Source: Deltaproteobacteria bacterium
Lineage (GTDB): Bacteria > Desulfobacterota > Binatia > Binatales > Binataceae
NCBI GenBank assembly: GCA_027317185.1
Contig: DAHVFB010000007.1
Span: 1,064 to 65,063 of the forward strand
DNA: 64,000 nt
Reading direction: 5' to 3'
The notes under the pieces: model-generated
Told to the model about the DNA's origin: nothing
Seen by the model: only the letters and a program-made list of their open reading frames with translations
Databases searched by the model: none
Program-made: the position numbers and the translations under genes
In this document: one piece after another, positions 26,349 to 35,087 of the stretch
Position numbering within the stretch: the stretch's first letter is position 1
How the letters are laid out: every line of letters begins with the position of its first letter

Positions 26349-27917
26349 TTAAAGATTTTTCTTTGCGCATTCGCCGGCAATATAGTCGGCCTGCCGAATC
26401 GCCAGCGTCACGATCGTCAGCGTCGGATTTTCCCCCGCGCTGGTGGTGAATTGGCTGCCATCGGAAATGAACAGGTTCTTCAGATCGTGGGTCTGTCCCC
26501 ACTTGTTGCAGACGCCATCGCGCGGACTTTCGCTCATCCGGCAGGTGCCGAGATTGTGCGTCGACGGATAGGGCGGCGTCTCGATCGTGCGGATCGCGCC
26601 GACCGCGTCGTAGACCGCAGCGCCGCGCTTATAGCCATACGCGCGCATCGCCAGGTCGTTGGGATGATCGTCGTAATGCACGTTCGGAATCGGCAAGCCG
26701 AACTGATCTTTTTCCGTCGGATTGAGCGTGACCGCGTTGCTCTCCTGCGGCATATCCTCGCCGACGATCCACATCCCGGCCATGTTGTTATGCTGATCGA
26801 GCATCCCGGCGTAATCGCGGCCCCACGCGCCGGGATTCAGGAACGCGGCGGTGAACGGCAGCCCCAGCGAGATCGTCTCCATCTCGAAACCGCCGGCGAA
26901 GCCCCGGCTCGTGTCGAGCCCCGATTCGTCCTGAATAATTCCCGCCATCACGGTGCCGCGATACATATGCACGGGCTTTTTGAAAATCGCGAAGACCGAT
27001 CCGGTGGTATGCCGCATGTAGTTCTTGCCAACCTGGCCCGACGAATTGGCCAGCCCCGACGAGTAGGTCGAGGTTGCCGAGTTGAGCAGCAGCCGCGGAC
27101 TTTCGATCGAGTTGCACGCGACGCATACGATTCGCGCCTTCTGCACGTTGTGCTGGCCGTTCGCGTCGGCGTAGAGCACGCCCGTCGCCTTGCCGTTTTT
27201 GTCGGCGAGAATCTGCAGCGCCTGCGATTGCGGCCGCAAGTCGAGCTTGCCGGTCGCTTCGGCCTTGGGAATCTCAGTGTAGAGCGTTGACCATTTCGCG
27301 CCCGACTTGCATCCCTGGAAGCAAAACCCCAACTGCCAGCACGACGATCGATCGTCGCGCGGCCGGCTGTTGATCGCCATCCGCCCGGTATGCACGGTCT
27401 TGTAACCGACCCGCGTCGCCCCGTTGTACATCACCTTGAAGTTATTATTGCCGGGCAGACCGGGAATATCGTTGGTCCGCGTCACCCCCATCTTGTCTTC
27501 GGCCTTGGCATAGTACGGCGCGAGATCCGCAAGCCCGATCGGCCAGTCGAGCAGGTTGGCGCCGGTGATATTCGAGTAGTTAGTCTTCGCCTTGAACTCA
27601 TGCTCTTGCAGGCGCAACGAGGCGCCCGCCCAATGCACCGTGGTGCCGCCGACCGTTTTGCAAATCCACGCCGGCAGGTTCGGAAAATCCTTTGCCACGC
27701 GCCAACTGCCCGAGGTCGTGCGCTTGTCGAGCCACGCCAACTGGTTGAACGCGAACCATTCGTCGTTGTGAAAAGTGGCCGAGGATTGGCGCTGGCCGGC
27801 TTCGAGCAATACTACTTTCAAGCCCTTTTGCGTAAGCTCGTTGGCGAGCGTACCGCCGCCGGCGCCAGAACCGATAATCACCACTACTGAGTCATCGCCT
27901 GAATCAAAGCGCGCCAC
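26349..27917 (-). CDS. GMC-family FAD-dependent oxidoreductase (large subunit of a membrane-associated dehydrogenase)
   Basis: N-terminal VVIIGSGAGGGTLANEL. C-terminal GMC signature (GENPTLTIVTLA). Confidence 0.9.
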   Translation of the reverse strand: MARFDSGDDSVVVIIGSGAGGGTLANELTQKGLKVVLLEAGQRQSSATFHNDEWFAFNQLAWLDKRTTSGSWRVAKDFPNLPAWICKTVGGTTVHWAGASLRLQEHEFKAKTNYSNITGANLLDWPIGLADLAPYYAKAEDKMGVTRTNDIPGLPGNNNFKVMYNGATRVGYKTVHTGRMAINSRPRDDRSSCWQLGFCFQGCKSGAKWSTLYTEIPKAEATGKLDLRPQSQALQILADKNGKATGVLYADANGQHNVQKARIVCVACNSIESPRLLLNSATSTYSSGLANSSGQVGKNYMRHTTGSVFAIFKKPVHMYRGTVMAGIIQDESGLDTSRGFAGGFEMETISLGLPFTAAFLNPGAWGRDYAGMLDQHNNMAGMWIVGEDMPQESNAVTLNPTEKDQFGLPIPNVHYDDHPNDLAMRAYGYKRGAAVYDAVGAIRTIETPPYPSTHNLGTCRMSESPRDGVCNKWGQTHDLKNLFISDGSQFTTSAGENPTLTIVTLAIRQADYIAGECAKKNL

Positions 27918-27933
27918 TACACAGACCTCCGCG

Positions 27934-28473
27934 TCACGAAGCTTTGGGACTGGCCGAGGCCGGCGGATCCGGCAGCCATTTCAGATCGTTGAAGCCATGA
28001 TGGAGGTAGCCGCCAAACGGATATGACGCTCCTGGATAGCCAAAGCGTTTCCACACGGCGGGATTATTGTAGAGCGATACCAGCTCGATACCGCGGACCT
28101 TCTGAAAGAACGGCGTCGTCTCGATCCGCTTTAGCCCGGCCACCTGCTCGGCGCTCGAGCGCGCGGCGAATTTCTTGGCGCCGCCGGCGTCAAGCTGCGC
28201 GATCCCGTCATGCATCATTTGCGCACTGGCCGGCGTGGCCTGGGCCTCCTGATCGAGATCGTGCACCACCTTGATGTAGTAGCTATCGGCAAGGCGATCG
28301 TGCGGAAAAATCTCCCGCACCATCTTGAGCAGCGTCTCGCCCTCATGCTCGCTGAAGGCCTTCAGTTCGGCAGTCCACGAAGCCGCGAAACTGACCGCCG
28401 CGGCCCCCGATGTGGCAATCGCCACGCCAGCTACCGCGATTGCCCCCTTCTGCAAGAATTCGCGTCGCTTCAT
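27934..28473 (-). CDS. Tat-signal small subunit (gluconate 2-dehydrogenase subunit-3 family)
   Basis: MKRREFLQKGAIAVAGVA twin-arginine signal. Size and position match subunit 3 of three-component GMC dehydrogenases. Confidence 0.7.
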   Translation of the reverse strand: MKRREFLQKGAIAVAGVAIATSGAAAVSFAASWTAELKAFSEHEGETLLKMVREIFPHDRLADSYYIKVVHDLDQEAQATPASAQMMHDGIAQLDAGGAKKFAARSSAEQVAGLKRIETTPFFQKVRGIELVSLYNNPAVWKRFGYPGASYPFGGYLHHGFNDLKWLPDPPASASPKAS

Positions 28474-28611: not shown

Positions 28612-29064
28612 TTACTTACCCAGCTTGCGCACGCGCTCGACCAGCGCGGCGACTACCGCCGGTTCATTTTCGAGGTCCGGATTCGAGGCCATCTCGGCAC
28701 TCAAGCCCACCGCCTTGCCACCCTGGACGATCGCCTGAGCGATGCGCGCGTCGGTCACCGAACGCTGCCATTTGCGGCTGTGGAAATTGACTGGCCGCGG
28801 GTTCAGATTGGCCGCCGCCGGACCGTTGCCGCGACCCTGGTCGCCATGGCACGTGGCGCATCGCGAGGTAAAGATCTCCGCCGCCTGCGCGCGCGCATCC
28901 GCGGTGACCGCGGCCGGCGGCGCGCTATCATGATTATCCGTCGAGGCCGCCTGCGCGAGCATTTGATAGGAATTCGCCGCCCGACTGACTAACGGCGCAG
29001 CGCCCGCCGCGGTCATCGCCATGACTGCGGCGACGAAGCCATAACCGAACCTACGCGCTTTCAT
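28612..29064 (-). CDS. c-type cytochrome (class I, CATCH haem site)
   Basis: Signal peptide plus CATCHGDQGRG. Confidence 0.85.
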   Translation of the reverse strand: MKARRFGYGFVAAVMAMTAAGAAPLVSRAANSYQMLAQAASTDNHDSAPPAAVTADARAQAAEIFTSRCATCHGDQGRGNGPAAANLNPRPVNFHSRKWQRSVTDARIAQAIVQGGKAVGLSAEMASNPDLENEPAVVAALVERVRKLGK

Positions 29065-29093: not shown

Positions 29094-30134
29094 TCAAGGT
29101 ATCAGTACCGCGCGCCCTTTGATCTGGCCGTTCTTAAGATCCTGCAGGGCGGTATTAGCTTCGCTGAGACGGTATTCTCTGGTCGTCAGATTGACTAATC
29201 CGCGATCCGCCAGCGCCATCAGTTCGACCAGGTCTGAGTAGGTACCGACCAGGTTGCCGACGATCGTCTTCTCAGTGACGATCATCTCCATCGTCGCGAT
29301 CTCAACTTTGCCGCCGTAGCCGACGATATAGTAGTAACCGGCGTTGCAGGTCATCTTGAGCCCGTTGGCCACCGCGGCCCCTTCGCCGACAAAATCGATC
29401 ACCGCCTGCGCGCCCGCGCCGCCGGTCAGTGCGAGCACCGCATCGACCTCGTTGCCGTCGGCGCGGACCGTATGCGTCGCGCCGCACTCACGCGCGAGCT
29501 TCAGCGCGGCTTCCGATCGGTCAACCACGATCACATCGGCGGCACACAGCGCCTTGAGCACCTGTATACCTATATGTCCGAGTCCGCCCGCGCCGATCGC
29601 GACCGCACAGTCGCCCGGCAGCAGATGCGCCGCGGCCTTCTTCACCGCATGGTACGCCGTTAGGCCGGCGTCGGCGTAAGGCGCGACGTCCTTGGGTGCG
29701 AGTGTGCGCGGCAGCTTGATCAGTGCGCGCTCGGCGGTCTTGAGCAACTCGGCGTATCCGCCGTTCGAATCGATTCCCGGAAATGCGCCGCCCGCATGCA
29801 TATCGTTGCCGCGCCGCGCCGCCAGCGTCTCGCCATGGCTCAACAGCGGATGACAGATCACCGGGTCGCCGACCTTCACGCCCGTGACGCCCGCGCCGAC
29901 GGCCTCGATCCAGCCGGCGTTTTCGTGGCCCATGATGTACGGCAGTTGGACCGGCACGCGATCGCGCCACAGCCCCTCGATCACGTGGAGGTCGGTGCGG
30001 CATACGCCGGCGCCGCCGACCCGCACGATCACGTCGAACAGGCTCTCGATCTTCGGTTCGGGCACGTCCTTGTAGACCACGAACTCGGGCCGTTCGAGCT
30101 TCAGATCGTACTGGTTTAGAACTGCTGCCTTCAT
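29094..30134 (-). CDS. zinc-dependent alcohol dehydrogenase (MDR family)
   Basis: GVCRTDLH, GHENAGWIEAVG, GAGGLGHIGIQ. Confidence 0.9.
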   Translation of the reverse strand: MKAAVLNQYDLKLERPEFVVYKDVPEPKIESLFDVIVRVGGAGVCRTDLHVIEGLWRDRVPVQLPYIMGHENAGWIEAVGAGVTGVKVGDPVICHPLLSHGETLAARRGNDMHAGGAFPGIDSNGGYAELLKTAERALIKLPRTLAPKDVAPYADAGLTAYHAVKKAAAHLLPGDCAVAIGAGGLGHIGIQVLKALCAADVIVVDRSEAALKLARECGATHTVRADGNEVDAVLALTGGAGAQAVIDFVGEGAAVANGLKMTCNAGYYYIVGYGGKVEIATMEMIVTEKTIVGNLVGTYSDLVELMALADRGLVNLTTREYRLSEANTALQDLKNGQIKGRAVLIP

Positions 30135-30339
30135 TTAATTATAACCGCGGCTTCGCAGACTCGCCCGCACCCCATGCCCGCTTCGCCCGATGCGAACTTC
30201 ACTCGCCTACGCGCCATGACCAACCGCGGCTTTGACTGGGATGCGGACGAGTCCGCGAAGTCGCGCTTTAGGTCTCGCCACACCCCATGCCTGACCGCGG
30301 TGCACCTGCGTTTCGCTCAATAGCCACTCCGCGCTCGCT

Positions 30340-31632
30340 CTACGGCAGGTACTGCGGCTGAAATTCGGTCGGGATCAGCACCGATTTGACGGTCACCAGA
30401 TCGTATTTTCTCCGCTCGCCCTGAAAATGCACGAGCCCCGCGATTAGCTGCTGCGGATCGTGCAACGGAATCAGCCGCTCGTCGTTGAATACGTCGCCGC
30501 TCATCGTGAGCTTCACCGCGCGGGTCTCGCCCGGCGCGATCGGTGTATTGGGCTCGACGTCGAGTTTGCCGGTATAGTCGGCCGGTCCCGCCTGCGCGAT
30601 CGCCGCCGCGTCGCCATTGACGAACGTCGTCATCGCCATCGAGTATTCGGTCAGCGTCAGCGGCATATCGCTGATATTCTTGATCTGGGTATTAAGGATC
30701 AGCGTGCTGGTCTTCTCGTCATAGGTTGCGCCGGTGCCGCGCACCGTCGCCAGATTCACGCCAGGCGCAGCCGAGACCGGCTCAAAGCGATCGGTCTGCT
30801 GCGGCAGCCGCACTGGAAATTTTGCCGCCATGTAGACCCAGCCACCGACCATCATCGCGACGGTGATACCCGCCAGCACGCTCATCCAGAAATGATCGCG
30901 CGGTGTGATCAATCCAATATCCGGCGCGTCGTCGTTGATCGGCAGTTGAATCGTCACCGCCAGGCGGGTCACCGTGCGCTTGGGCACCGTCCAGTAGAGC
31001 ATCCAGATGACGCCGATGATGAATCCGGCGAGCGACCACCACCAGACGAACGCACCGCCGTAATGCTCGAGGTTAACTTTCTGCCCATCGAGCAGCGACA
31101 CGTCGAAGCGAAATGGCGTCGCACTGGGCTCGACCGTGACCCATTCGCCCGGGCCGATCAGCGTGCCGGTGCCCTGGATCGCAATCCCGGGATGGACGTG
31201 CCAGCGGCCCGGATTACGTCCGCGCATCACCATATTGAAATTGTAGACGCCGCCCTTTTCCACGAAGATCGATCCCATGTCGGGTTCGCCATTGACCGTG
31301 CGATCGGCCAGCACAAATACCGGGCCGGGCACCACCGGCGTGATATACGCCGTGGCCGGCGGATCGAGCGTGTAGGGCCAGGTCTCGAGGATCTTGAGGC
31401 TCCCGGTGATCGTGACCGGATCGCCAACCTTGATCACGGTCGGCGAGATATGGACATTGAAGAACGCGACCGTCAGGTCCTTGAGAAACGGCTCGTCGGC
31501 CGCTTCGCCATGGGCCCAGGCGCCGCGTGCGCCGCACAGGATAATCAGAACGGCCGCCGTCAGACCGGCCGCAAATCGCAATCGCATCTGCGCACTCCTC
31601 ACCGGGCGGCGGCCCATAACGGGCCGCGCCAC
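30340..31632 (-). CDS. pmoB: copper membrane monooxygenase subunit B (PmoB/AmoB/HmoB family)
   Basis: Signal peptide then HGE.. (the N-terminal His ligand), RNPGRWHVH (HxH), GTGTLIGPGEWVTVEP, DGQKVNLEHY, two TM helices, and a C-terminal cupredoxin-like domain ending LIPTEF. Collinear with Methylococcus PmoB. Confidence 0.9.
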   Translation of the reverse strand: MARPVMGRRPVRSAQMRLRFAAGLTAAVLIILCGARGAWAHGEAADEPFLKDLTVAFFNVHISPTVIKVGDPVTITGSLKILETWPYTLDPPATAYITPVVPGPVFVLADRTVNGEPDMGSIFVEKGGVYNFNMVMRGRNPGRWHVHPGIAIQGTGTLIGPGEWVTVEPSATPFRFDVSLLDGQKVNLEHYGGAFVWWWSLAGFIIGVIWMLYWTVPKRTVTRLAVTIQLPINDDAPDIGLITPRDHFWMSVLAGITVAMMVGGWVYMAAKFPVRLPQQTDRFEPVSAAPGVNLATVRGTGATYDEKTSTLILNTQIKNISDMPLTLTEYSMAMTTFVNGDAAAIAQAGPADYTGKLDVEPNTPIAPGETRAVKLTMSGDVFNDERLIPLHDPQQLIAGLVHFQGERRKYDLVTVKSVLIPTEFQPQYLP

Positions 31633-31651
31633 TGCGCAATCGGGCGGATTC

Positions 31652-31918
31652 TTATCTACTAATCGCCCGTCGTTTCAGGTTTTGTGACTTCGAGACCGGC
31701 GGCTCGCGCCGCGTCGGCCACAGAATCATGATCCAGTAACAGATGATTCCGAGCCCCACCGACAGGCCTACCGGCGGTCCCAGCTCCCCCGGACCCGCCA
31801 TCCCGCCGTGAGCGCTCGCCGACGGAGCGAATAGGCCGATCCACGAGATCGCGAGCGCCATTCGCCGCGCCCATCGGTAATTATGCGTTCTTCGTGTCAT
31901 CGCCTGCCAGATACTCAA
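31652..31918 (-). CDS. small predicted membrane protein encoded between pmoA and pmoB (about 60-88 aa, 2 hydrophobic helices)
   Basis: Same-strand ORF filling the unusually long pmoA-pmoB spacer (MALAISWIGLFAPSASA .. VGLSVGLGIICYWIMILW). The ends are Arg-rich, so coding status is uncertain. Confidence 0.35.
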   Translation of the reverse strand: MSIWQAMTRRTHNYRWARRMALAISWIGLFAPSASAHGGMAGPGELGPPVGLSVGLGIICYWIMILWPTRREPPVSKSQNLKRRAISR

Positions 31919-31939
31919 TTGACGCCAGTTACTGAATAC

Positions 31940-32737
31940 TCAGATCGTCTTGATAAAACGCCCGATCGGCCACACCGCGAGATAGCGGCCGATGAATTGT
32001 CCGATCCAATAGCCTATCACCGCCATGGTCCCGCCAAATACCAGTGAGACGTACTGAGTCTCACCCAAAAAGCTCCGCAATGCGCCACGCTCGATATGCC
32101 GCATGTACTCGGGCGTCTGCGAACGGATATAGCCGATGCCCTGCACGTCCGACACCGTCATCACGTGATGCATGAACACGGCGGGCTGCAGAAACGGAGC
32201 GAGCGGTATGTAATTGAACGCCCAGACCATAAAGGCCCACGTCGCCCCTCCGATCAGCGATGTGAGCACAAAACTTCGCGTCTTCATCAATAGCCAGTCC
32301 AGGATGATCGCAGCCGGCACGGTCGAAATCGGCCAGACGAAATTCAGCGGATAGGTCTCGGCCACGTGCCATTGAAAATAGCGCCCGATCCACGAGGCCA
32401 GGAACAGGCACACGCAGGTATAGGTCGCGCCGGTCGGAAAGCGCCACGCCACCCATTGAATCCATTGCAGCGCCGACGGAATGATAATCGTTGCGAAGGC
32501 CGTGATCACCGGCCACCACTGCGCGTCTTTCCAATCGGTCCAGAAATCCCAGTCGCCGGCGAACAGCAGCTTGGTGATATCCGCCGCCCCCGCCACGATA
32601 AATATCGCCGTGACCCAGAAGACCACGTCCCAGGTCCGATCGATATACTTGTATTTCGCGTTCAGCAGGTCGCGCAGTTCGAGCCGCCGCTGGCGTTCAG
32701 CCGCGGACATCGTTAGCGCAGAAGGTGTCGACGCCAT
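31940..32737 (-). CDS. pmoA: copper membrane monooxygenase subunit A (PmoA/AmoA/HmoA family)
   Basis: GDWDFWTDWKDAQWWPVI, TPEYMRHIERGALRSF. Likely start at MSAAERQ (about 32710). Confidence 0.9.
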   Translation of the reverse strand: MASTPSALTMSAAERQRRLELRDLLNAKYKYIDRTWDVVFWVTAIFIVAGAADITKLLFAGDWDFWTDWKDAQWWPVITAFATIIIPSALQWIQWVAWRFPTGATYTCVCLFLASWIGRYFQWHVAETYPLNFVWPISTVPAAIILDWLLMKTRSFVLTSLIGGATWAFMVWAFNYIPLAPFLQPAVFMHHVMTVSDVQGIGYIRSQTPEYMRHIERGALRSFLGETQYVSLVFGGTMAVIGYWIGQFIGRYLAVWPIGRFIKTI

Positions 32738-32793
32738 CTATTCTCCCCCAAGCTCCCCAAGCTATTGCGCGCCGGTCCCTCCCGGCGCATTAC

Positions 32794-33600
32794 TCAACCA
32801 GCGGCCGCACTATGGATTGGCGCTTCCTCGCTGGCCTGCGCCGACTTCTCGATCTGATAGAGCCGCAGGATACTCTCGCCCCAGACCGCGAACATGCCGC
32901 TCGCCAGCCATCCGTAGGCCACAAACGGCCAATGGAACGGCACCGAGAAAAATTCTTCCGATAGCCACAGGCTGTGGCCCCATTCGTTGAACGCGACCTG
33001 CATGAACTCGAGCACCGCCGCCGAGATCAGCAGGAAAAACGACCACGGAAAGCCCTTGTCGGGACTGTACAGCGCGGGTATCCGGTAGCGTCCGTAGATA
33101 TACGCGCCCAGCGCGAGCACCACCGAGAGCGGAAAGAAAAAGTAGAACATCGGGATATGCGTCGGCGTCAGCGCCGTATCGCGCACCATCGTCTGATGCC
33201 ACGCGCCGTCCCAGTTCGGCCAGAAACTCGCCTCGATGTAGAGCGACAGGCTGGTCGCGCCGATAATCCCCCACAGCACCGCGATCCGCCGCACCTCTTC
33301 GCGCGGCGCCGCCTGCGGATTTTCGAGCGCACGGCCGGTCCGGATCAGCCATCCGTACCACAGCCCGCAGAAGATCCCGTTGGTCAACAGTTCCGCCCAG
33401 AACAGCGCCCGGTAATGCGTCGTGAAGGCATGCGTCGCCGAATTCAGGCCAATCGTGAAGGCGTATTTGTAGTCGAAGAGCCAGAGAAACAGGTTCGCCG
33501 CCAGCAGCGCCGCACAGCCGACAAACAGCGTCTTCCAGCCTCCGAGCCAATCCGTCGGGCCGCGGCCGCCCGCTTCATCCAGTCCCCGTGTCGAGTCCAT
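32794..33600 (-). CDS. pmoC: copper membrane monooxygenase subunit C (PmoC/AmoC/HmoC family)
   Basis: GAWHQTMVRDTALTPTHI .. NEWGHSLWLSEEFFSVPFHWPFVAYGWLA. Collinear with PmoC, including the conserved Asp/His metal-site region. Confidence 0.9.
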   Translation of the reverse strand: MDSTRGLDEAGGRGPTDWLGGWKTLFVGCAALLAANLFLWLFDYKYAFTIGLNSATHAFTTHYRALFWAELLTNGIFCGLWYGWLIRTGRALENPQAAPREEVRRIAVLWGIIGATSLSLYIEASFWPNWDGAWHQTMVRDTALTPTHIPMFYFFFPLSVVLALGAYIYGRYRIPALYSPDKGFPWSFFLLISAAVLEFMQVAFNEWGHSLWLSEEFFSVPFHWPFVAYGWLASGMFAVWGESILRLYQIEKSAQASEEAPIHSAAAG

Positions 33601-33624
33601 CCAGATCTTCCCCTGTGACCAGAG

Positions 33625-33672
33625 ATTGACTTATCAATCAAGGGCTTACACCGCATTGACGCGCGGCGTCAA
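33625..33672. promoter_or_regulatory. two palindromes upstream of pmoC (GATTGA-ctta-TCAATC and TTGACGC-gcg-GCGTCAA)
   Basis: Read from the sequence, in the 120-bp pmoC leader region. Candidate operator sites. Confidence 0.3.
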
Positions 33673-33723
33673 CCATTGCGATTGCCCTCGTCCGGCGCGA
33701 TCGTCCCAATCGGCGCTGCGCGT

Positions 33724-34227
33724 TCAGGCCGGCGGACGCGGGCGGCTCGCGATCTCTTTCGATTCCGCCACCTTGAGCTTGCGCGCGGCCGCCGCCCGCC
33801 GCCGCGCGTAGACCGCCGGGTCGGCCAATGGCGAATGGTCATGCCCATGCGGATGCGGTTGATTCTTGGCCGCGGGCACGCCGAGTTGCGCTGAGCGCTC
33901 GGCGCGCGCCGCCACCGTATCGTCGTATTCCGCACCGCGGCCATGCTTATAGGCCGCAAAACGCGACGCCGACTTGTCGTCCATCCAGCACAGCCGCGCG
34001 CCCGGCGGCACCTTGAGGCTGGTCACTTCCGGCCGCGACGGATCGCTCCGTCCCACAGCCGGTGGCGGACTTCCACCGCCCATCATGAAGCTCACCGCCG
34101 AGATTATCCGCCGCGCCGGCCGCGCGCATCGCGGACATGGCCGCGCGCGCATCCGCGCCGCACTAAGCGGCACCAGCACCTCGAAAGTTACTCCGCAGGG
34201 CTCACAGCGGCATTCATACAACGGCAT
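33724..34227 (-). CDS. FmdB-family zinc-ribbon putative regulatory protein with Pro/Ala-rich C-terminal extension
   Basis: MPLYECRCEPCGVTFEV .. RPCPRCA. Confidence 0.55.
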   Translation of the reverse strand: MPLYECRCEPCGVTFEVLVPLSAARMRARPCPRCARPARRIISAVSFMMGGGSPPPAVGRSDPSRPEVTSLKVPPGARLCWMDDKSASRFAAYKHGRGAEYDDTVAARAERSAQLGVPAAKNQPHPHGHDHSPLADPAVYARRRAAAARKLKVAESKEIASRPRPPA

Positions 34228-34310
34228 CGCAATCTCTTTACGCGCTCGCGGCGCGGCGCAGGCCATTCGATCGACGCGCGCCGCGCCGCCCCATCGAATC
34301 GATTCGAACC

Positions 34311-35087
34311 CTATTCAACCAGATGCGGATGTTCCTTCCAGTCGTCGGGGTCGTGCGTGATCCAGACCGTTGCGCCATGCATATCGCGAATCGCCTTCAC
34401 CCGCCGGATCGATTTCACCGACTGAATCGGGTCGGTGTCGATCCCCATCGTCGCCTCCTGAGTAATCGCGGCGCGCAGATGCACGGTGTCGCCGGTCAGC
34501 AGGAACTTGCGATTGGACAGGTTGACCAGTAGCGAGCATTCGCCGGGCGTATGGCCGGGGGTGTAGAGAAATTTGAGCGCGCCGTCGCCGAACAGGTCGA
34601 GGTCCTGGTCAAACTCAAGCCAGTTGTACGCGCGGGTCGGCAGAAAATCGTTCAGGATAAACGCCCAGCGCCGATCCGGGTCCGGCCAGTAGGCGTATTG
34701 CAGTTCGTTGGCGCCGACGATAAACGTGGCCTTCGGGAAATACGTCAGGCCGCCCGAATGATCCAGATGCGAATGTGACAGGATGACGTATTTCACGTCG
34801 GACGCCTTATAGCCGACGCCCGCGATCTGCTTGTCGAGCGTGTCCGACTTGCTCCATTTGATCGGCAGCGCCTGCGCCACTTCGCCCCAGTAGCCCGCCG
34901 CGTCGTCGATAATCTTGGGGTTACATCCGCTGTCGAACAGCACCAGCCCCTTGGGATGTTCGATCAGGAACGAGGGGCACGGCAACTGCAACAGGCTCGC
35001 GTCGCCGCCATGCATCAGGAGCGACGCCGGCGCGGTCAGTTCCGCGCCCGGCAGGGCCCACATCTTCTTCGCTTTGCCGTCAGCCAT
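34311..35087 (-). CDS. MBL-fold metallo-hydrolase (N-acyl-homoserine-lactonase-like)
   Basis: HSHLDHSGG (HxHxDH) and downstream His/Asp ligands. Confidence 0.8.
   Translation of the reverse strand: MADGKAKKMWALPGAELTAPASLLMHGGDASLLQLPCPSFLIEHPKGLVLFDSGCNPKIIDDAAGYWGEVAQALPIKWSKSDTLDKQIAGVGYKASDVKYVILSHSHLDHSGGLTYFPKATFIVGANELQYAYWPDPDRRWAFILNDFLPTRAYNWLEFDQDLDLFGDGALKFLYTPGHTPGECSLLVNLSNRKFLLTGDTVHLRAAITQEATMGIDTDPIQSVKSIRRVKAIRDMHGATVWITHDPDDWKEHPHLVE

What the first reader, a model, noticed from the sequence alone, without database searches (positions are those of the whole stretch)
31652..31918. Extra small membrane ORF inserted between pmoA and pmoB
The pmoA-pmoB spacer here is about 300-350 bp, much longer than in canonical pmoCAB operons. 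It is exactly filled by a same-strand ORF predicting a 60-88 aa protein with two hydrophobic helices (MALAISWIGLFAPSASA .. VGLSVGLGIICYWIMILW), tightly packed between the pmoA stop and the pmoB start. It could be an unrecognised accessory subunit of this CuMMO, analogous in concept to AmoX or other small CuMMO-associated peptides.
Basis: inference. Interest (0 to 1): 0.6.

Follow-up and report, generated by a model that had tools for sequence, protein, structure and literature searches.

The report
Conserved small membrane gene inside xmoCAB
A small, previously uncharacterised gene for a one-helix membrane protein sits between subunits A and B of a copper monooxygenase operon in every related Binatia genome examined, and it is the best candidate for an extra, operon-encoded subunit of this enzyme type.

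Summary
The host is a Candidatus Binataceae MAG. The ORF fills a 352-nt A-B spacer.

It is a genuine gene. A homologue occupies the same position in all 79 related loci that contain the region. The core is under purifying selection (dN/dS 0.22). GC3 is highest in this frame. In 25 of 43 loci its stop overlaps the xmoB start by 8 nt.

- **Architecture:** a Sec signal peptide with an invariant A-x-A|H site, a periplasmic motif HGG(M/I)AGPDELGPP, one TM helix (invariant Y, W-P) and a basic cytoplasmic tail.
- **Databases:** no Pfam, NCBIfam, PDB or Rfam match.
- **Relatives:** actinobacterial hmoCAB operons carry, just after hmoB, a small TM protein with the same LAHGGxMTGxE motif (hhalign P about 1e-4), probably a distant homologue.
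- **Prior work:** Murphy et al. 2021 noted "CAxB" but did not analyse x.

Best reading: a supernumerary subunit or assembly factor, possibly binding copper through its N-terminal His. Physical association is untested.

The parts
32794..33600 (-). xmoC (CuMMO subunit C, 268 aa)
   Evidence: Pfam AmoC, E 3e-44.
31940..32737 (-). xmoA (CuMMO subunit A, 265 aa)
   Evidence: Pfam AMO, E 5e-58. It is 74-100% identical to 80 Binatia loci and 45% identical to actinobacterial HmoA.
31652..31900 (-). Small gene 'xmoX' (82 aa plus stop). The maximal ORF from TTG 31918 is 88 aa.
   Evidence: Identical to GenBank hypothetical protein P0001. Positional homologues occur in 79 of 79 loci. Core dN/dS is 0.22. 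GC3 is highest in this frame.
31811..31900 (-). Predicted Sec signal peptide (residues 1-30; n-region TRRTHNYRWARR, h-region MALAISWIGLFAP, c-region SASA)
   Evidence: Across 75 homologues, position -1 is Ala in 75 of 75. Position -3 is A, V, G or T in 75 of 75, and +1 is His in 75 of 75. The region has a positive net charge and evolves nearly neutrally (dN/dS 0.85). It is absent from the probable actinobacterial homologues. Cleavage itself is inferred, not shown.
31772..31810 (-). Conserved periplasmic motif at the predicted mature N-terminus: HGGMAGPGELGPP (residues 31-43)
   Evidence: A30, H31 and P43 are invariant; G32, M34, E39, G41 and P42 are at least 90% conserved. The segment is acidic with no K or R. 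AF2 models it as a loop.
31715..31771 (-). Single transmembrane helix (residues 44-62, VGLSVGLGIICYWIMILWP)
   Evidence: Hydropathy peak of 2.28. AF2 helix at residues 44-60. Y55, W61 and P62 are invariant; W56 and L60 are nearly invariant.
31655..31714 (-). Basic cytoplasmic tail (residues 63-82)
   Evidence: The family has a median of 3 K+R in the 15 residues after the W-P. Tail length is variable. Longer homologues carry a conserved RLRKIE / IRIKRKPRLRVIE motif.
31595..31600 (-). Shine-Dalgarno GAGGAG of xmoB
   Evidence: Read directly from the sequence. It lies 7 nt upstream of ATG 31587.
30340..31587 (-). xmoB (CuMMO subunit B, 415 aa; signal peptide, then mature HGEAADEPF...)
   Evidence: Pfam Monooxygenase_B, E 2e-77. 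The mature N-terminus HGEAADEPFLKDLT is conserved in 75 loci.
29094..30134 (-). Zn-dependent alcohol dehydrogenase, downstream on the same strand
   Evidence: Pfam ADH_N and ADH_zinc_N. The same neighbour occurs in L084 and L089.
28612..29064 (-). c-type cytochrome, same strand
   Evidence: Pfam Cytochrom_C.

Best explanation
The ORF is a real gene, here called xmoX, of the xmoC-xmoA-xmoX-xmoB operon of a Binataceae bacterium.

It encodes a Sec-exported precursor. Signal peptidase I most likely cuts it after Ala30. The mature protein is then about 52 aa. Its first residue is an invariant His, followed by a short acidic periplasmic peptide (HGGMAGPGELGPP), one transmembrane helix with an aromatic Y-W...W-P end, and a basic tail in the cytoplasm (N-out, C-in).

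It is made together with XmoB. I propose it docks by its helix onto the membrane part of the XmoCAB complex as a supernumerary fourth subunit or assembly factor. That would hold the His-bearing N-terminal peptide at the periplasmic face near the copper sites. There the N-terminal amine plus imidazole could bind or hand over copper.

Shown here: the gene is real, conserved, operon-specific and tightly packed between xmoA and xmoB. Inferred: signal-peptide cleavage, topology, physical association with the complex, and any copper role.
For: - **Position:** a homologue lies between xmoA and xmoB in 79 of 79 informative loci, where XmoA is 74-100% identical. The same holds for five more distant family members (L081, L084, L089, L090, L091).
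- **Selection:** dN/dS is 0.22 in the core, against about 0.8 in the signal peptide and tail.
- **Coding frame:** GC3 is 0.71 in frame and 0.57/0.60 out of frame.
- **Operon packing:** the median gap from the xmoA stop to the X start is 7 nt. The X stop overlaps the xmoB ATG by 8 nt in 25 of 43 loci. No terminator lies in the spacer.
- **Signal peptidase site:** -1 Ala, a small residue at -3 and +1 His in 75 of 75 sequences.
- **Gene continuity:** three diverged database proteins (P0077, P0123, P0135) read in frame from X into the XmoB signal peptide. This fits a cytoplasmic C-terminus and a link to XmoB.
- **Duplication:** some operons hold two tandem copies, CAxxB.
- **Family size:** only 99 clusters at 50% identity among 1.84 billion representatives.
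- **Actinobacterial parallel:** hmoCAB operons carry, directly after hmoB in 6 of 6 contexts, a small N-out TM protein with LAHGGQMTGDE. hhalign gives P = 8e-5 against the distant X subfamily and 1.2e-4 against the main family. The strict motif occurs 27 times in 2.16 M six-frame residues, always in these genes.
- **Precedent:** small supernumerary helices are seen in pMMO and bacterial AMO, and AmoX/Y/Z in archaeal AMO (PMC11725843, PMC13058606).
Against: - There is no experimental evidence of expression, cleavage or association with the complex.
- No complex model could be built with the tools. AF2 of the monomer gives only two helices and a loop at pLDDT 67.
- The probable actinobacterial homologues have no signal peptide, so their His is not N-terminal. 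This weakens a universal histidine-brace mechanism.
- Met at +4 is not invariant (I, N, G and others also occur). X has no second conserved metal ligand.
- One family member (P0188) lies far from any CuMMO gene.
- The full family HMM does not detect the actinobacterial proteins significantly (E 0.2-0.9 in a 305-ORF database). That link rests on profile-profile P values near 1e-4 and on a motif defined after seeing the data.
- XmoA, XmoB and XmoC here are full length and keep the CuB ligands, so nothing is obviously missing for X to replace.
Confidence: 0.6

Rival explanations
1. X is a membrane-tethered copper-handling or assembly factor. It acts transiently to load Cu into XmoB or XmoC, or to sense periplasmic copper, and is not a stable subunit.
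For: - The His at the predicted mature N-terminus is invariant, with Met usually at +4, in an acidic peptide.
- PmoD is a precedent: a Cu protein with a signal peptide and a C-terminal TM helix encoded next to pmo/amo operons (PMC13058606).
- An orphan paralogue lies away from any CuMMO.
Against: - Only one conserved potential ligand residue exists.
- The periplasmic part is about 13 residues, with no Cys and no folded domain.
- The tight stop/start overlap with xmoB suggests stoichiometric co-production.
- The TM helix is the best-conserved part together with the His.
- The actinobacterial relatives lack an N-terminal His.
Confidence: 0.2
2. X is a small membrane protein serving another function of the gene cluster. 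It might anchor or partner the downstream cytochrome c, alcohol dehydrogenase or GMC oxidoreductase, or organise membranes. It would be in the operon only for co-expression.
For: - The operon continues into a Zn-ADH, a cytochrome c and a GMC oxidoreductase.
- The function of small TM proteins cannot be read from sequence.
Against: - X keeps its place between xmoA and xmoB although downstream genes differ between loci.
- Actinobacterial operons with different downstream genes (an AMP-binding protein) still have the motif-bearing ORF next to hmoB.
- X reads in frame into XmoB in three sequences.
Confidence: 0.1
3. The spacer acts at the RNA or translation level. It would be a leader or uORF, or a structured RNA, that tunes xmoB translation. 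The peptide itself would have no function.
For: - The stop/start overlap with xmoB in many loci implies that translating X affects xmoB initiation.
Against: - Protein-level purifying selection in the core (dN/dS 0.22).
- Residues are invariant across sequences only 25-50% identical.
- A signal peptide plus TM architecture is retained in 99 clusters.
- RNA folding is no better than shuffles (z = -0.74; 22 of 100 shuffles fold as well).
- No Rfam hit.
- The window itself has a 64-nt gap and its own GAGGAG before xmoB.
Confidence: 0.03
4. The ORF is a chance open frame in GC-rich DNA.
For: The window is 62.5% G+C and full of spurious long ORFs on both strands.
Against: The ORF is conserved in position, intact, in the frame with highest GC3 and under purifying selection, and it has about 300 database homologues.
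Confidence: 0.01

Closest known systems
Archaeal AMO small subunits AmoX, AmoY, AmoZ (Hodgskiss et al. 2023, PMC10030591; reviewed in PMC13058606)
   Same: They are small membrane proteins encoded with or co-regulated with amoA/B/C. amoX lies next to amoA. They were long overlooked because of their size, and they add TM helices to a CuMMO.
   Different: - No sequence similarity was detectable (no Pfam, NCBIfam or PDB hit).
- They are archaeal, and in AlphaFold models they compensate for parts that the archaeal enzyme lacks. XmoA, B and C here are full length.
- X has a cleavable signal peptide and an N-terminal His motif.
Supernumerary helices in native-membrane structures: the 23-aa protein of Methylocystis sp. 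Rockwell pMMO (9CL5) and the 46-aa unannotated ORF of N. europaea AMO (9CL6) (Tucci & Rosenzweig, PMC11725843)
   Same: They are single-pass helices bound beside the C subunit of bacterial CuMMOs, with unknown function. [quoted passage not shown] That is the geometry proposed here for the X N-terminal peptide.
   Different: - A profile search of all PDB chains of 20 residues or more found nothing.
- The papers read here say only that those helices are encoded in the genome and do not place them within the operon.
- The AMO helix has the opposite orientation (N-in).
- X is larger, carries a conserved periplasmic motif and lies between the A and B genes.
PmoD/AmoD (Fisher et al. 2018; PDB 6CPD)
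   Same: It has a signal peptide, a periplasmic copper-related part and a C-terminal TM anchor. It is encoded next to CuMMO operons and is needed for copper-dependent growth.
   Different: PmoD has a folded cupredoxin domain of about 100 residues with Cys, His and Met CuA ligands. X has only about 13 periplasmic residues and no conserved periplasmic Cys. There is no sequence similarity.
Small ORF directly downstream of hmoB/bmoB in Actinobacteria (for example Mycch_5908 of M. chubuense NBB4, P0220; Rhodococcus, M. dioxanotrophicus, Nanopelagicales MAGs)
   Same: - It carries the motif LAHGG(Q)MTGDE, against (A)HGG(G)M(A/T)G(P)(D/E)E in X.
- It has one TM helix followed by a basic cluster, the same inferred N-out topology and adjacency to subunit B.
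- hhalign gives P = 8e-5 and 1.2e-4, and the motif is exclusive to these genes in 2.16 M residues.
   Different: - It has no signal peptide, so the His is at residue 7-9 of an uncleaved N-tail.
- It lies after B rather than between A and B.
- The TM helix lacks the Y-W...W-P signature.
- It is not detected by the X family HMM. Homology is probable but not proven.
N-terminal histidine-brace copper sites (PmoB CuB His33, CopC, YcnI, LPMOs)
   Same: The predicted mature protein starts with His directly after an A-x-A signal-peptidase site. XmoB in the same operon does the same (AWA|HGE).
   Different: Those sites need further His ligands from a folded domain, and X has none. Mature X shows no similarity to the mature XmoB N-terminus beyond H-G. 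Copper binding was not tested.

Membership tests
CuMMO operon (xmoCAB/pmoCAB/hmoCAB type) | Adjacent same-strand genes for subunits C, A and B | tested here: met
   Pfam AmoC, AMO and Monooxygenase_B, with E values of 3e-44, 5e-58 and 2e-77, in the order C-A-(X)-B on the minus strand.
CuMMO operon (xmoCAB/pmoCAB/hmoCAB type) | CuB ligands in subunit B (N-terminal His after the signal peptide, plus an HxH motif) | tested here: met
   The XmoB translation shows ...GAWA|HGEAADEPF and ...RWHVHPG. The mature N-terminus HGEAADEPF is conserved in 75 loci.
New family 'XmoX' (Binatia CAxB hypothetical protein) | Signal peptide ending A-x-A, then His, then G-P-P, then a TM helix with Y-W...W-P, then a basic tail; gene located between xmoA and xmoB | tested here: met
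   The window protein has A30, H31, P43, Y55, W61 and P62, all invariant in alignments A1 and A2. Its position is as in 79 of 79 loci.
AmoX / AmoY / AmoZ (archaeal AMO subunits) | Sequence homology to the archaeal proteins | tested here: not met
   There is no hit in Pfam, NCBIfam or the PDB sequence profile search. All 99 representative clusters found with the X profile share the same short signal-peptide/His/single-TM architecture, and the contexts I sampled were CuMMO operons of this type. No direct pairwise comparison with AmoX/Y/Z sequences was run.
AmoX / AmoY / AmoZ (archaeal AMO subunits) | Co-purification or co-migration with the AMO complex | not testable with these tools
   This needs BN-PAGE and proteomics, or cryo-EM.
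Supernumerary helices of pMMO/AMO (9CL5, 9CL6) | Sequence similarity to the modelled 23-aa or 46-aa proteins | tested here: not met
   hmmsearch of profile A2 against 177,635 distinct PDB sequences at E up to 10 gave 0 hits.
Supernumerary helices of pMMO/AMO (9CL5, 9CL6) | Single TM helix bound to the C subunit in native membranes | not testable with these tools
   One TM helix is predicted, but binding cannot be tested. Only single chains from the window or from homologous-protein hits may be submitted for structure prediction, so no complex prediction was attempted.
PmoD/AmoD | Periplasmic cupredoxin-like domain with Cys/His/Met CuA ligands | tested here: not met
   Only about 13 periplasmic residues lie between the cleavage site and the TM helix. 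There is no conserved periplasmic Cys and no Pfam domain.
PmoD/AmoD | N-terminal signal peptide and C-terminal TM anchor | tested here: met
   Shown by the (-3, -1) rule statistics and hydropathy. This feature alone does not define the family.
Histidine-brace copper proteins | His as the first residue of the mature protein | tested here: inconclusive
   The A-x-A|H site is present in 75 of 75 sequences, but cleavage is a prediction. The probable actinobacterial homologues have no signal peptide.
Histidine-brace copper proteins | Copper bound by the N-terminal amine, the imidazole and further ligands | not testable with these tools
   This needs spectroscopy of the peptide or the complex.

The most novel reading that the evidence does not exclude
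X and the actinobacterial post-hmoB peptide are one ancient family of operon-encoded fourth subunits of hydrocarbon-type copper membrane monooxygenases. Their membrane-tethered A-H-G-G-x-M peptide reaches a periplasmic copper site of XmoB or XmoC. There the His, as an N-terminal histidine brace in Binatia, supplies ligands or delivers copper. This would correspond to the unexplained density seen at the CuB site of pMMO in native membranes. It could also explain why some CuMMOs lose activity when purified or expressed without their small partners.
Probability: 0.2. Interest if true: 0.8.

Novelty: new variant of a known kind. Interest (0 to 1): 0.55.

Why it matters
Copper membrane monooxygenases (pMMO, AMO, hydrocarbon MOs) control methane, ammonia and short-alkane turnover. 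They are notoriously hard to keep active outside the cell.

Recent native-membrane structures show that small extra helices belong to these enzymes. Their genes were hard to find and their role is unknown. Here the candidate extra subunit is encoded inside the operon, is conserved across a whole phylum-level lineage, and carries a recognisable His motif.

A probable counterpart exists in cultivable, genetically tractable Actinobacteria: M. chubuense NBB4, Rhodococcus and M. dioxanotrophicus. That makes the question "what do supernumerary CuMMO helices do?" directly testable by deletion and co-expression.

It also gives annotators a marker, the CAxB order plus the motif, for the Binatia/TUSC-related enzymes whose substrate is debated.

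Tried and rejected
1. **Single-sequence search.** Searching with the 82-aa protein alone found only 3 relatives because of the word index. A profile of locus-derived sequences was needed.
2. **Family HMM against actinobacterial ORFs.** The actinobacterial small ORFs ranked 4th, 5th and 7th with E 0.2-0.9. The top hits were HmoB signal peptides. A single-sequence hhalign was also weak (E 0.095). Only profile-profile comparison gave P near 1e-4.
3. **X as a duplicated XmoB N-terminus.** hhalign of mature X against mature XmoB N-termini found nothing beyond H-G (P 0.03-0.13). Rejected.
4. **The L046 X-XmoB fusion.** It is a 1-nt deletion relative to L041 in a long-read assembly and is probably an error. 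Fusion evidence now rests only on P0077, P0123 and P0135, and the contig of P0135 could not be retrieved.
5. **Structured-RNA rival.** The fold z-score is -0.74, and the only sub-threshold Rfam hit in 30000-34000 lies outside the spacer (CRISPR-DR20, 30771-30805, E 0.93). Rejected.
6. **AF2 of the monomer.** It returns two helices and a loop and adds nothing beyond hydropathy. No fold search was run because a single helix gives meaningless matches.
7. **Literature.** Searches for hmoD/bmoD and 'between pmoA and pmoB' gave nothing relevant.

Full report
**What is there.** The finding lies in a copper membrane monooxygenase (CuMMO) operon on the minus strand. Pfam identifies AmoC at 33600-32794, AMO (subunit A) at 32737-31940 and Monooxygenase_B at 31587-30340. 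A Zn alcohol dehydrogenase, a c-type cytochrome and, further on, a GMC oxidoreductase follow on the same strand. The xmoA stop and the xmoB ATG (preceded by GAGGAG) are 352 nt apart. The gap is filled by a minus-strand ORF, 31918-31652 from the first TTG. The likely start is ATG 31900. This gives 82 aa, identical to a GenBank 'hypothetical protein' of a Candidatus Binataceae MAG.

**Is it a gene?** I fetched 80 genome loci encoding XmoA relatives (74-100% identity). All are Binatia MAGs or evident misbinnings. tblastn and ORF extraction show a homologue of the small protein between xmoA and xmoB in every locus that contains the region, 79 of 79. Three copies are broken by frameshifts, all in assemblies labelled MFD; in two of them (L008, L023) the XmoB hit is also only partial.

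The small protein evolves faster than the enzyme subunits: 30-60% identity against 74-90% for A. It is still constrained. Over 657 pairs, NG86 dN/dS is 0.22 for residues 28-64 and about 0.8 for the signal peptide and the tail. GC3 is 0.71 in frame against 0.57 and 0.60 in the other frames. Neighbouring genes have 0.76-0.81.

The gene is tightly packed in the operon. The median gap from the xmoA stop to the X start is 7 nt. In 25 of 43 loci the X stop overlaps the xmoB ATG by 8 nt. The spacer RNA folds no better than shuffles (z = -0.74). It has no Rfam match and no terminator. A chance ORF or a purely RNA-level element is excluded.

**Anatomy.** Alignments of 45 and 48 diverse members show invariant A30, H31, P43, Y55, W61 and P62. 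G32, M34, E39, G41, P42, W56 and L60 are nearly invariant.
- In 75 sequences the residue before the His is always Ala. Position -3 is A, V, G or T, and the upstream segment has a basic n-region and an uncharged stretch of about 18 residues. This is a canonical signal peptidase I site.
- The stretch after the His is acidic and free of K/R. It is followed by a hydrophobic helix of about 19 residues (KD peak 2.28) and a basic tail.
- AF2 gives helix 4-28, loop 29-43 and helix 44-60 at modest confidence.

The mature peptide would be about 52 aa, N-out and C-in, with His as its first residue. XmoB in the same operon starts the same way (AWA|HGE).

**Family and distribution.** The family has no Pfam, NCBIfam or PDB relative. 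A profile search of 1.84 billion representatives found only 99 clusters, all small proteins with the same plan. Of six distant members looked up, five sit between xmoA and xmoB, or directly upstream of xmoB on short contigs, with XmoA 72-77% identical to the window's. One (P0188) is an orphan with no CuMMO gene within 6 kb. Two loci carry two tandem copies. This explains the 'CAxxB' order that Murphy et al. 2021 listed together with 'CAxB' for Binatota without analysing x (PMC8262859).

Three diverged database proteins (P0077, P0123, P0135) run in frame from X into the XmoB signal peptide. This is topologically consistent with a cytoplasmic X C-terminus. The similar fusion in L046 is a 1-nt deletion and probably an assembly error.

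**A probable counterpart in Actinobacteria.** In plasmid-borne hmoCAB operons of M. chubuense NBB4, Rhodococcus sp. WAY2 and M. dioxanotrophicus, A and B are adjacent (4-26 nt). Directly after hmoB comes a small ORF that starts M...(I/Y)LAHGGQMTGDE(M/I)A. It continues with one TM helix and a basic cluster.

A profile search collected 31 such proteins. In all six contexts examined they follow Monooxygenase_B. Distant Binatia-type X variants read LAHGGGMTG(E/Q)(D/E)L. Profile-profile comparison gives P = 8e-5 over 39 columns and P = 1.2e-4 over the motif. The pattern AHGG.?[ML].[GS].?[DE]E occurs 27 times in 2.16 million six-frame residues of all held DNA, always in these genes.

The plain family HMM does not reach significance, and the motif was defined after seeing the data. 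I therefore rate homology as probable, not shown. These proteins have no signal peptide, so their His is not N-terminal.

**Mechanism.** The best-supported reading is a supernumerary subunit or assembly partner of XmoCAB. It would be co-produced with XmoB and anchored by one helix, with a short His-bearing acidic peptide at the periplasmic face. [quoted passage not shown] It also matches archaeal AmoX/Y/Z (PMC13058606).

A copper role for the His is attractive, as an N-terminal amine plus imidazole in Binatia. It is unproven. Only one ligand residue is conserved, Met at +4 is variable, and the actinobacterial relatives lack a free N-terminal His. X is not a PmoD, because it has no cupredoxin domain. 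It is not a detectable copy of the XmoB N-terminus either.

**Verdict.** The ORF is a real, conserved, operon-specific gene for a small exported membrane protein. The gene's existence was already noted in the literature as 'x' and in GenBank as hypothetical.

New here are the family definition, the signal peptide/His/TM architecture, the selection and gene-overlap evidence, the tandem duplicates and the in-frame continuity with xmoB. Also new is the probable link to a post-hmoB peptide in cultivable Actinobacteria, which offers a route to experiment.

Noticed in passing
L076 6844-7131 and 7148-7462; L079 6791-7078 and 7050-7364: Two tandem paralogous copies of the small gene lie between xmoA and xmoB. 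This is the 'CAxxB' order of Murphy et al. 2021. Both copies keep the A|H...PP...W-P signature.
   Followed up: partly
L085 6110-6325, L086 6105-6386, L087 6065-6361, L092 5001-5195, L094 3478-3732, L095 5001-5288: Actinobacterial hmoCAB operons carry a small TM protein with the invariant motif LAHGGQMTGDE directly after hmoB. A second small membrane ORF follows it (for example L085 6322-6666). Both are annotated only as hypothetical.
   Followed up: partly
L082 6001-6225 and L083 5975-6199: An orphan member of the X family (P0188, AHRGFGPAELGLPLG...CYWIVMLWP) lies between a peptidase M18 gene and an enoyl-CoA hydratase/3-hydroxyacyl-CoA dehydrogenase gene. No CuMMO gene lies within 6 kb.
   Followed up: no
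P0077, P0123, P0135 (database proteins); L046 6769-8391: The small protein reads in frame into XmoB. Three diverged sequences share the junction ...HLKKV..(K/R)M(R/C)LLVGI. The L046 case is explained by a 1-nt deletion relative to L041 and is probably an assembly error.
   Followed up: partly
L050, L057, L061, L054, L028 (record titles): Binatia-type xmoCAXB operons (XmoA 75-84% identical to the window) occur in MAGs labelled Enterobacteriaceae, Klebsiella pneumoniae, Verrucomicrobiae or Acidobacteriota. This is most likely misbinning or contamination. It echoes the misbinning argued for 'Ca. M. kingii' in bioRxiv 10.64898/2026.02.02.703227.
   Followed up: no
window 33724-34266 (-): A 180-aa protein with an N-terminal Zn-ribbon (Pfam Zn_ribbon_8) lies about 120 nt upstream of xmoC on the same strand. 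A metallo-beta-lactamase-fold protein lies at 34311-35087. A regulatory role was not examined.
   Followed up: no
window 27934-28473 (-) and 26349-27917 (-): A 179-aa ORF with no Pfam match lies directly upstream of a GMC-family oxidoreductase, downstream of the cytochrome c. L084 has the same pair (a 195-aa unknown plus GMC) after xmoB. It may be a small subunit of a membrane-bound alcohol or aldehyde dehydrogenase.
   Followed up: no
L092/L093 (Logan ERR12387319, ERR12387318): A CuMMO operon with the post-B motif peptide lies on contigs that carry P0246. One source names that protein as from a Candidatus Nanopelagicales MAG. The same protein was seen on 24 contigs.
   Followed up: no
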